From Escherichia coli (lineage in GTDB: Bacteria > Pseudomonadota > Gammaproteobacteria > Enterobacterales > Enterobacteriaceae), in the NCBI RefSeq assembly GCF_016026235.1, contig NZ_CP065613.1: a DNA stretch of 64,000 bases, one strand, 5' to 3'. The position numbers and the translations under genes were made by a program. Shown here piece after piece: positions 10,964-11,059 of this stretch (position 1 is the stretch's first letter; every line of letters starts with the position of its first letter). Below the pieces are notes generated by a model that ran no database searches, was not told the DNA's origin, and saw only the letters and a list, made by a program, of their open reading frames with translations.

Positions 10964-11059
10964 CAGCACACGAAACAGACCTGATATACATGGCTCTGCT
11001 AACTGCTTCGCTGCAGTTTCAGTTTACCGGTATATGGGGACCAACGCTGTTTCGTGTGC
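10964..11059 (-). promoter_or_regulatory. rnc 5-prime leader long-range stem (candidate RNase III autoregulatory site)
   Basis: CAGCACACGAAACAG (~10964..10978) pairs with CTGTTTCGTGTGC (~11047..11059), 13 of 15 bp, enclosing ~70 nt just upstream of the rnc start. Confidence 0.45.

What the first reader, a model, noticed from the sequence alone, without database searches (positions are those of the whole stretch)
10964..11059. Long-range stem in the rnc leader consistent with RNase III autoregulation
Thirteen of fifteen positions pair between 10964..10978 and 11047..11059, enclosing ~70 nt just upstream of the rnc start. RNase III is known to cleave a stem-loop in its own leader, and this structure is the likely site. 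Listed as a regulatory element visible in the sequence rather than as a novelty.
Basis: partly seen in the sequence, partly recalled or inferred. Interest (0 to 1): 0.2.

Follow-up and report, generated by a model that had tools for sequence, protein, structure and literature searches.

The report
Known RNase III autoregulatory operator, rncO
The long-range stem is real and is the basal helix of stem-loop II of rncO, the textbook hairpin in the E. coli rnc mRNA leader that RNase III cuts to limit its own synthesis, so the finding is correct but ordinary.

Summary
The window is E. coli, with lepA-lepB-rnc-era-recO on the minus strand. The reported pairing exists and is stronger than described. 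There is a perfect 13-bp inverted repeat (10966-10978 / 11047-11059). In the minus-strand rnc mRNA it extends to 15 contiguous pairs (11061-11047 with 10978-10964, one G.U), enclosing 68 nt and ending 31 nt before the rnc ATG. No such repeat appeared in 1000 shuffles.

Rfam RF00552 (rncO) matches 11092..10878 (-) over its full length at 258 bits against a threshold of 43. In that model the stem is the base of stem-loop II. The leader differs from E. coli K-12, where rncO was characterised, by one base in an apical loop.

Across 78 Enterobacteriaceae species both arms are almost invariant: 11 of 15 pairs never vary and one covaries A-U/C-G. The enclosed sequence ranges from 17 to 92 nt.

Secondary literature states that RNase III cleaves this leader hairpin and that RNase E then degrades the mRNA. 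The exact scissile bonds could not be retrieved here, so I cannot say whether they lie inside the 15-bp helix or just above it.

Verdict: observation confirmed, interpretation supported, already known, low interest.

The parts
10878..11092 (-). rncO as a whole (nt +1 to +215 of the rnc-era-recO mRNA): 5' leader, stem-loops I, II and III
   Evidence: Rfam RF00552 full-length match, model 1-214/214, 258.4 bits, E 2.9e-61
11047..11061 (-). 5' arm of the basal helix of stem-loop II (mRNA nt +32..+46, CGGCACACGAAACAG)
   Evidence: Rfam structure mapped to window coordinates; inverted repeat; MFE and centroid folds; 97.5% of cells paired in 53 species
10964..10978 (-). 3' arm of the basal helix of stem-loop II (mRNA nt +115..+129, CUGUUUCGUGUGCUG)
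   Evidence: always ends 31-32 nt before the rnc ATG in 78 species
11040..11046 (-). Conserved 5' half of the internal loop and short helix directly above the basal helix (CGUUGGU, +47..+53)
   Evidence: Motif CGTTGGT kept in nearly all 78 species whatever the interior length; pairs as UUGG(U)/(A)UCAG after a 2x2 loop in ViennaRNA and RNAalifold folds; Rfam draws it as a loop plus a CC/GG helix
10979..10984 (-). Conserved 3' half of the same internal loop and short helix (UCAGGU, +109..+114)
10985..11039 (-). Apical extension of stem-loop II (+54..+108), lineage-specific and variable
   Evidence: Absent in 53 of 78 species (interior 17-22 nt), about 58-74 nt interior in the Escherichia, Citrobacter and Salmonella group, 90-92 nt in Raoultella-like genomes; one base differs from K-12 here (10994)
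11062..11080 (-). Stem-loop I (+13..+31)
   Evidence: Rfam structure; 5 of its 7 pairs show changes on both sides across species
11092..11092 (-). Inferred transcription start (+1) of the rnc operon mRNA
   Evidence: First position of the Rfam model. It gives a 160-nt 5' UTR, matching 'rnc 5'-UTR (nucleotides 1-160)' in PMC10037077. Inferred, not mapped here
11101..11129 (-). Sigma-70-like promoter, ACGACA-17 nt-TAGAAT
   Evidence: Consensus scan, 9 of 12 matches; strongly conserved across genera in alignment A1
10933..10963 (-). Unpaired spacer between stem-loop II and the start codon (+130..+160), carrying the translation initiation region
   Evidence: Unpaired in the Rfam consensus; length 31-32 nt in all 78 species
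10893..10912 (-). Stem-loop III, inside the first codons of rnc (+181..+200)
   Evidence: Rfam structure; 95.8% paired; third codon positions of codons 1-18 are 94.5% identical against 65-75% in the gene body
10252..10932 (-). rnc coding sequence (RNase III), the regulated gene and source of the trans-acting enzyme
   Evidence: ORF; TIGR02191 equivalog at 247.8 bits; RefSeq annotation

Best explanation
The stem is the 15-bp basal helix of stem-loop II of rncO. rncO is the post-transcriptional operator in the 160-nt 5' UTR (plus the first 55 nt of coding sequence) of the E. coli rnc-era-recO mRNA, which is transcribed from the minus strand of the window. While intact, the 5'-terminal stem-loops protect the message. 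RNase III, the product of the first gene, binds the roughly two-turn double helix of stem-loop II and cleaves it. This removes the protective 5' structure and leaves a 5'-monophosphate end, from which RNase E rapidly degrades the mRNA. RNase III therefore represses its own synthesis, and that of Era, in proportion to the amount of free enzyme. When abundant substrates such as pre-rRNA occupy the enzyme, repression relaxes.

Shown here: the helix, its strand, its position, its statistical significance, its membership of the Rfam family, its conservation, and its near-identity with the K-12 leader.

Taken from the literature: the cleavage by RNase III and the RNase E-dependent decay.

Inferred only: the transcription start at 11092, and the idea that the conserved 15 bp plus the conserved internal loop and 4-5 bp helix above it (about 21 bp in all) form the minimal enzyme-binding unit.
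For: The sequence is E. coli: it matches 5425 of 5426 complete E. coli genomes, with rnc and lepB annotated under the match. It differs from K-12 MG1655 across rncO by a single base, in an apical loop.

Rfam rncO matches at 258.4 bits over the full length on the minus strand, against 22.9 bits (below threshold) on the plus strand.

There is a perfect 13-bp inverted repeat, which never occurred in 1000 shuffles. The folds have z-scores of -5.3 and -5.6.

In 53 aligned species the helix is 97.5% paired. One pair switches between A-U (20 species) and C-G (29), one is G.U or A-U, and 11 of 15 pairs are invariant.

The G.U pairs are standard pairs only in the sense transcript: +33/+128 in 41 of 53 species, plus those in the short helix and in stem III.

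Twelve other genera match rncO at 151-231 bits.

Literature: RNase III cleaves an irregular or long hairpin in its own 5' UTR, and RNase E decay follows. Nt 1-129 of the UTR, ending at the last base of the 3' arm, is an in vivo RNase III substrate assayed by primer extension. The known rnc cleavage sites were re-detected by transcriptome-wide 5'-P mapping in wild type versus rnc-14 (PMC6212723).
Against: Nothing contradicts it. There are limits.

No tool here measures cleavage, and the primary papers (Bardwell 1989; Matsunaga 1996) and the supplementary table with the mapped sites are not held. The scissile bonds were therefore not placed relative to the 15-bp helix.

Covariation support for this helix is thin, because both arms are almost invariant. 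Only one pair has changes on both sides, and three positions carry mismatches in some genera (A.C in 7, a non-pair at +44/+117 in 5, C.U in 4).

Folding energy does not discriminate the strands: -43.6 kcal/mol for the plus strand against -41.2 for the minus strand.
Confidence: 0.94

Rival explanations
1. A refinement rather than a contradiction. The 15-bp helix is only the docking platform and 5' stabiliser. The bonds actually cut by RNase III lie above it, in the conserved internal loop and short helix (11040-11046 / 10979-10984) or in the apical extension. On this reading the stem is not itself 'the site'.
For: The CGUUGGU...UCAGGU motif directly above the helix is as conserved as the arms in 78 species. 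That is expected if it carries reactivity determinants. RNase III commonly cuts about one helical turn from a helix end, and internal loops often restrict cleavage to one strand (general knowledge; PMC3386247 makes the same point for S. aureus rnc). Nicholson's review calls the substrate an 'irregular hairpin'.
Against: In the 53 species with a 17-22 nt interior the whole hairpin is about 21 bp. A cut about 10-11 bp from either end would then fall inside the 15-bp helix. The gUTR129 reporter needs cleavage to free a guide RNA fused directly 3' of nt 129. That is easier to understand if the cut is in or near the 3' arm. Neither argument is decisive.
Confidence: 0.4
2. The hairpin is an intrinsic terminator or attenuator that stops lepA-lepB read-through or prematurely terminates rnc transcription.
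For: It is a stable G+C-containing hairpin in an intergenic region between two co-oriented operons.
Against: The 3' arm is followed by AAUUGUUGACGC, not a U-run. The terminator scan did not call it, but did call a separate 14-16 bp hairpin followed by U-rich sequence at 11192..11158, directly after lepB and upstream of the rnc promoter. The hairpin lies downstream of the conserved promoter, inside the transcript.
Confidence: 0.02
3. The stem controls translation by sequestering the rnc ribosome-binding site.
For: It is in the 5' UTR, close to the start codon.
Against: The 3' arm ends 31 nt before the ATG, and the intervening spacer is unpaired in the family model. [quoted passage not shown]
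Confidence: 0.02
4. The repeat acts at the DNA level as a protein-binding palindrome, or in an antisense (plus-strand) RNA.
For: The plus strand folds equally well in silico (-43.6 kcal/mol), and a weak plus-strand rncO match exists (22.9 bits, E 0.037).
Against: The distance between the arms varies from 17 to 92 bp among species, which does not fit a fixed dimeric DNA site. The conserved G.U pairs would be C.A mismatches in the antisense strand. The plus-strand Rfam score is below threshold and is what any hairpin gives on its complement. The only plus-strand promoter-like site (11130-11159) points away from the stem.
Confidence: 0.01
5. Chance inverted repeat without function.
For: None beyond the fact that short repeats occur by chance.
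Against: 0 of 1000 shuffles reached 13 bp. The arms are conserved in 78 species while the sequence between them is replaced.
Confidence: 0.005

Closest known systems
rncO (Rfam RF00552), the RNase III operator of the E. coli rnc-era-recO leader (Bardwell et al. 1989; Matsunaga, Simons & Simons 1996, cited)
   Same: It is this element. The covariance-model match is full length. The gene context, strand, three stem-loops and 160-nt UTR are the same. The sequence is identical to K-12 except for one apical-loop base.
   Different: Nothing of substance. The window's strain has G instead of A at +99 (10994), plus a 1-nt indel upstream of the lepB terminator-like hairpin, outside rncO.
RNase III site in the rpsO-pnp leader (pnp autoregulation)
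   Same: It is a 5'-UTR or intercistronic hairpin cut by RNase III, after which the downstream message decays faster.
   Different: There the final regulator is PNPase acting on the RNase III-processed duplex, so it is not self-regulation by RNase III. There is no sequence or Rfam relationship.
rnc autoregulation in Staphylococcus aureus and absB in Streptomyces coelicolor
   Same: RNase III cleaves a hairpin in its own mRNA to lower its own synthesis.
   Different: In S. aureus the hairpin is inside the coding sequence and only one strand is cut. These are analogous, not homologous, elements.
Phage T7 R1.1-type minimal RNase III substrates
   Same: They are roughly two-turn hairpins interrupted by an internal loop. 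The short-form stem-loop II of most Enterobacteriaceae has this shape: 15 bp + 2x2 loop + 4 bp.
   Different: They are processing signals that mature or stabilise phage mRNAs, not negative-feedback operators. The resemblance is in shape only and was not tested here.

Membership tests
rncO (Rfam RF00552) | Scores above the curated gathering threshold of the family covariance model over its full length | tested here: met
   258.4 bits against 43, model positions 1-214 of 214, E 2.9e-61, minus strand (repeated)
rncO (Rfam RF00552) | Lies in the 5' UTR of rnc, on the sense strand, downstream of the rnc promoter and running into the first codons of rnc | tested here: met
   rnc identified. Element at 11092..10878 with the ATG at 10932. 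Promoter-like site at 11129..11101. The 160-nt UTR agrees with PMC10037077.
rncO (Rfam RF00552) | Three stem-loops (I, II, III), with II a long irregular hairpin closed by a long basal helix | tested here: met
   The family consensus structure maps without non-canonical pairs. Independent MFE and centroid folds reproduce stem I and the 15-bp helix.
rncO (Rfam RF00552) | Structure maintained in related species (conservation or covariation) | tested here: met
   94.7% of cells paired, against 35-45% for slid controls. 0 of 500 shuffles reached the observed pairing or covariation score. Helix II base is 97.5% paired with one covarying pair. Stem I has 5 covarying pairs. Twelve other genera match RF00552 at 151-231 bits. 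Caveat: 11 of the 15 pairs of the reported helix never vary, and so say nothing either way.
rncO (Rfam RF00552) | Stem-loop II is cleaved by RNase III in vivo and in vitro | not testable with these tools
   Stated for E. coli in papers read here. The window's leader is identical to K-12 in both arms and differs by one apical base. The primary papers and the table of mapped sites are not held.
rncO (Rfam RF00552) | Confers RNase III-dependent instability (negative autoregulation), with decay by RNase E after cleavage | not testable with these tools
   Literature only.

The most novel reading that the evidence does not exclude
The only mildly new point concerns how little of stem-loop II is conserved across Enterobacteriaceae. 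The conserved operator is the 15-bp basal helix plus the CGUUGG/UCAGG motif above it. The apical two-thirds of the E. coli hairpin is a replaceable, lineage-specific insert. It is absent in 53 of 78 species, gives 58-74 nt between the arms in the Escherichia, Citrobacter and Salmonella group, and gives 90-92 nt in Raoultella-like genomes. Such inserts might tune the affinity or cleavage rate of RNase III, and hence the set-point of RNase III and Era levels in each lineage. They might equally be neutral.
Probability: 0.15. Interest if true: 0.25.

Novelty: already known. Interest (0 to 1): 0.08.

Why it matters
This is the textbook example of an RNase controlling its own mRNA, and it sets the cellular levels of RNase III and, through the shared transcript, of the essential GTPase Era. 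Re-finding it from raw sequence shows that the first-stage reader can recognise real regulatory RNA structure. It adds nothing to what is already curated (Rfam RF00552) and experimentally established for E. coli.

Tried and rejected
- **Exact cleavage positions.** The primary papers and a key review are not held: PMC1369450, PMC401487, PMC6311387, PMC209937 and doi 10.1089/crispr.2022.0041. The supplement of PMC6212723 that lists the detected rnc sites is not held. The supplements of PMC5371410 contain no rnc-leader site. PMC7373196 does not mention it. Text searches for 'rnc leader' and 'stem-loop II' returned nothing, and 'rncO' alone returned mostly chemistry papers.
- **Cleavage rules.** The in vivo rules of PMC6212723 are given only in a figure, so I did not attempt a rule-based site prediction.
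- **Apical region alignment.** MAFFT plus RNAalifold on the 16 long-form species recovered the basal helix and the short helix above it. It showed no covariation and could not align the apical part. I make no claim about the apical structure beyond the Rfam consensus for E. coli.
- **Strand from folding energy.** Comparing the two strands by folding energy is uninformative. The strand assignment rests on gene orientation, the promoter, the covariance-model score and the G.U pairs.
- **Rejected readings.** Terminator, RBS-sequestering stem, DNA palindrome, antisense RNA and chance repeat were considered and rejected (see rivals).
- **Plus-strand ORF.** The 92-aa plus-strand ORF at 10876..11154 is a mechanical ORF antisense to the leader, with nothing to support it.
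- **Searches not run.** I did not run the large protein searches to trace rncO beyond Enterobacteriaceae. The cost was not justified for an already-known element.

Full report
**Context.** The window is Escherichia coli. A 411-nt query spanning the finding matches 5425 of 5426 complete E. coli genomes, 4725 of them at 99% identity or more, once per genome, with lepB and rnc annotated under the match. The genes lepA, lepB, rnc, era, recO and pdxJ all lie on the minus strand. The ORF at 10252..10932 (-) is RNase III (TIGR02191, 247.8 bits). Its neighbours are signal peptidase I and Era.

**The observation.** The repeat finder reports a perfect 13-bp inverted repeat, 10966-10978 with 11047-11059, separated by 68 nt. 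So it is 13 of 13, not 13 of 15.

Read as the minus-strand RNA, the helix gains two more pairs (C-G and G.U). It then has 15 contiguous pairs between mRNA nt +32..+46 (11061..11047) and +115..+129 (10978..10964).

In 1000 dinucleotide-preserving shuffles of the spacer, the longest perfect inverted repeat averaged 7.0 bp and never exceeded 11. The isolated 98-nt hairpin folds at -41.2 kcal/mol (z = -5.3). The whole 285-nt spacer folds at -95.5 kcal/mol (z = -5.6). The 15-bp helix is present in both the MFE and the centroid structures.

**What it is.** A scan against Rfam gives a full-length match to RF00552, rncO, at 11092..10878 on the minus strand. It scores 258.4 bits against a gathering score of 43, with E = 2.9e-61 (and again in the whole-window scan). 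In the family consensus the reported stem is the basal helix of stem-loop II. Stem-loop I (11080..11062) precedes it. An unpaired 31-nt spacer follows it and leads to the ATG. Stem-loop III (10912..10893) lies within the first codons of rnc.

The plus strand gives only 22.9 bits, below threshold, which is what a hairpin's complement would be expected to give.

[quoted passage not shown] A sigma-70-like promoter (ACGACA-17-TAGAAT, 11129..11101) sits just upstream and is conserved across genera. A separate terminator-like hairpin (11192..11158) follows lepB.

Compared with E. coli K-12 MG1655, where rncO was characterised, the window's rncO differs by one base (10994, +99). That base lies in an unpaired apical segment. 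Both arms and the promoter are identical.

**Comparative evidence.** A genome scan with the RNase III protein returned 80 loci from Enterobacteriaceae species. Seventy-eight of them have the full leader.

In a 53-species alignment the 15-bp helix is paired in 97.5% of cells, and 11 of its 15 pairs never vary. One pair (+45/+116) is A-U in 20 species and C-G in 29. One pair (+33/+128) is G.U in 41 and A-U in 8. Three positions carry mismatches in a minority of genera.

Over the three helices taken together, pairing is 94.7%, against 35-45% when partners are slid by 1-3 columns. None of 500 shuffles reaches the observed pairing or covariation score. Stem I supplies most of the true covariation. 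Twelve other genera all match RF00552 at 151-231 bits.

The conserved G.U pairs, here and in the short helix above and in stem III, are standard pairs only in the sense transcript. This matters because folding energy alone does not separate the strands: the plus strand folds at -43.6 kcal/mol.

The support for this particular helix is therefore conservation plus one compensatory pair, not rich covariation. The near-invariance of both arms suggests constraints on sequence as well as on pairing. That would fit recognition by a protein. This last step is inference.

**A side result.** The sequence enclosed by the arms is not conserved in length. It is 17-22 nt in 53 species, 34 nt in one, 58-74 nt in 19 (E. 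coli has 68), and 90-92 nt in five. In every case the arms end 31-32 nt before the ATG, and the interior keeps CGTTGGT at its 5' end and TCAGGT at its 3' end.

The short forms fold as 15 bp + a 2x2 internal loop + a 4-bp UUGG/UCAG helix + a loop. That is a hairpin of about two helical turns. The same core is the RNAalifold consensus of the long forms. What looks like a 'long-range' stem in E. coli is thus an ordinary hairpin stem with a lineage-specific apical insert.

Third codon positions in rnc codons 1-18 are 94.5% identical across the 78 species, against 65-75% in the body of the gene. This fits the element extending into the coding sequence.

**Mechanism.** The papers read here state the following.
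- Cleavage of an irregular hairpin creates a new 5'-monophosphate end recognised by RNase E. Titration of the scarce enzyme by rRNA precursors relieves the repression (PMC3867540).
- The long stem-loop of the rnc-era 5' UTR is the target, and era is down-regulated with it (PMC10582724; PMC8708148).
- A fragment of nt 1-129 of the UTR is cleaved by RNase III in vivo, as measured by primer extension (PMC10037077). By my mapping, that fragment ends at the last base of the 3' arm (10964).
- The known rnc sites were re-detected by 5'-P end mapping in wild type versus rnc-14 (PMC6212723).

From my own recollection, not verified here, the Rfam description says that RNase III 'cleaves the long rncO stem II'.

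I could not retrieve the nucleotide positions of the cuts. I therefore leave open whether the scissile bonds are inside the 15-bp helix or in the conserved loop and short helix just above it. On geometry, a cut about 10-11 bp from either end of the roughly 21-bp short-form hairpin would fall within the upper half of the 15-bp helix. That is inference only.

**Alternatives.** Four other readings were considered.
- Terminator: ruled out by the lack of a U-run and by the element's position downstream of the promoter.
- RBS sequestration: ruled out by the 31-nt unpaired spacer and by the cited finding that autoregulation is independent of translation.
- DNA palindrome or antisense RNA: does not fit the variable arm spacing or the G.U pairs.
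- Chance: excluded.

**Verdict.** The element is rncO, which is already described, curated in Rfam and experimentally characterised in this very species. Novelty is none and interest is low. The only modestly new observation is how small the conserved core of stem-loop II is across Enterobacteriaceae.

Noticed in passing
window 10985-11039 (-); loci L001-L080, about 1390-1470: The sequence enclosed by the conserved rncO helix is hypervariable in length across 78 Enterobacteriaceae species: 17-22 nt in 53, 34 in 1, 58-74 in 19, 90-92 in 5. The arms and the CGTTGGT/TCAGGT motifs stay fixed. The E. coli 'long-range' stem is a short hairpin stem with a lineage-specific apical insert.
   Followed up: partly
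window 10879-10932 (-) and 10252-10450 (-): Synonymous (third-position) identity across 78 species is 94.5% in rnc codons 1-18 (rncO stem-loop III region), against 65-75% in the gene body. It rises again to 83% in codons 161-226, near the 4-nt rnc/era overlap. The latter was not investigated.
   Followed up: partly
window 11158-11192 (-): A perfect 14-bp (16 with extensions) hairpin followed by U-rich sequence lies directly after the lepB stop codon and upstream of the rnc promoter. It is probably the lepA-lepB terminator.
   Followed up: no
window 10994 and about 11200: In the lepB-rnc spacer the strain differs from K-12 MG1655 by one substitution (G for A at +99, in an unpaired apical segment of stem-loop II). 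It also differs by a 1-nt indel between the lepB stop and the terminator-like hairpin.
   Followed up: yes
window 13876-14707 (+), 7389-7465 (+), 21174-21216 (-), 40947-41085 (-), 44396-44521 (+), 62880-63242 (+), 32942-37949 (-): Other Rfam matches above threshold in the window: AsrC (antisense of rseC), OhsC, ES036/CssrF, RyfD, Phe leader, tmRNA, and a complete rrn operon with StyR-44 and a spacer tRNA. All are known E. coli features.
   Followed up: no
L075 (Klebsiella oxytoca) 3109-3200 (+): A match to RF02902 (Aggregatibacter sRNA 22) at 48.5 bits against 39.8, located at the era-recO junction or the start of recO. No corresponding hit above threshold appeared in the E. coli window.
   Followed up: no
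L069 and L067: Two database oddities. A contig labelled Chryseobacterium sp. 18061 carries a typical Enterobacteriaceae rnc locus (97% protein identity, Pluralibacter/Enterobacter-like leader). A contig labelled Citrobacter freundii M-21 has a leader almost identical to Atlantibacter (one base apart in the stretch between the arms). These are probably contamination or mislabelling.
   Followed up: no
window 10876-11154 (+): A 92-aa plus-strand ORF runs antisense through the whole rnc leader. It is a mechanical ORF with no supporting evidence. The nearby plus-strand promoter-like site (11130-11159) lies at its 3' end, not upstream of it.
   Followed up: no
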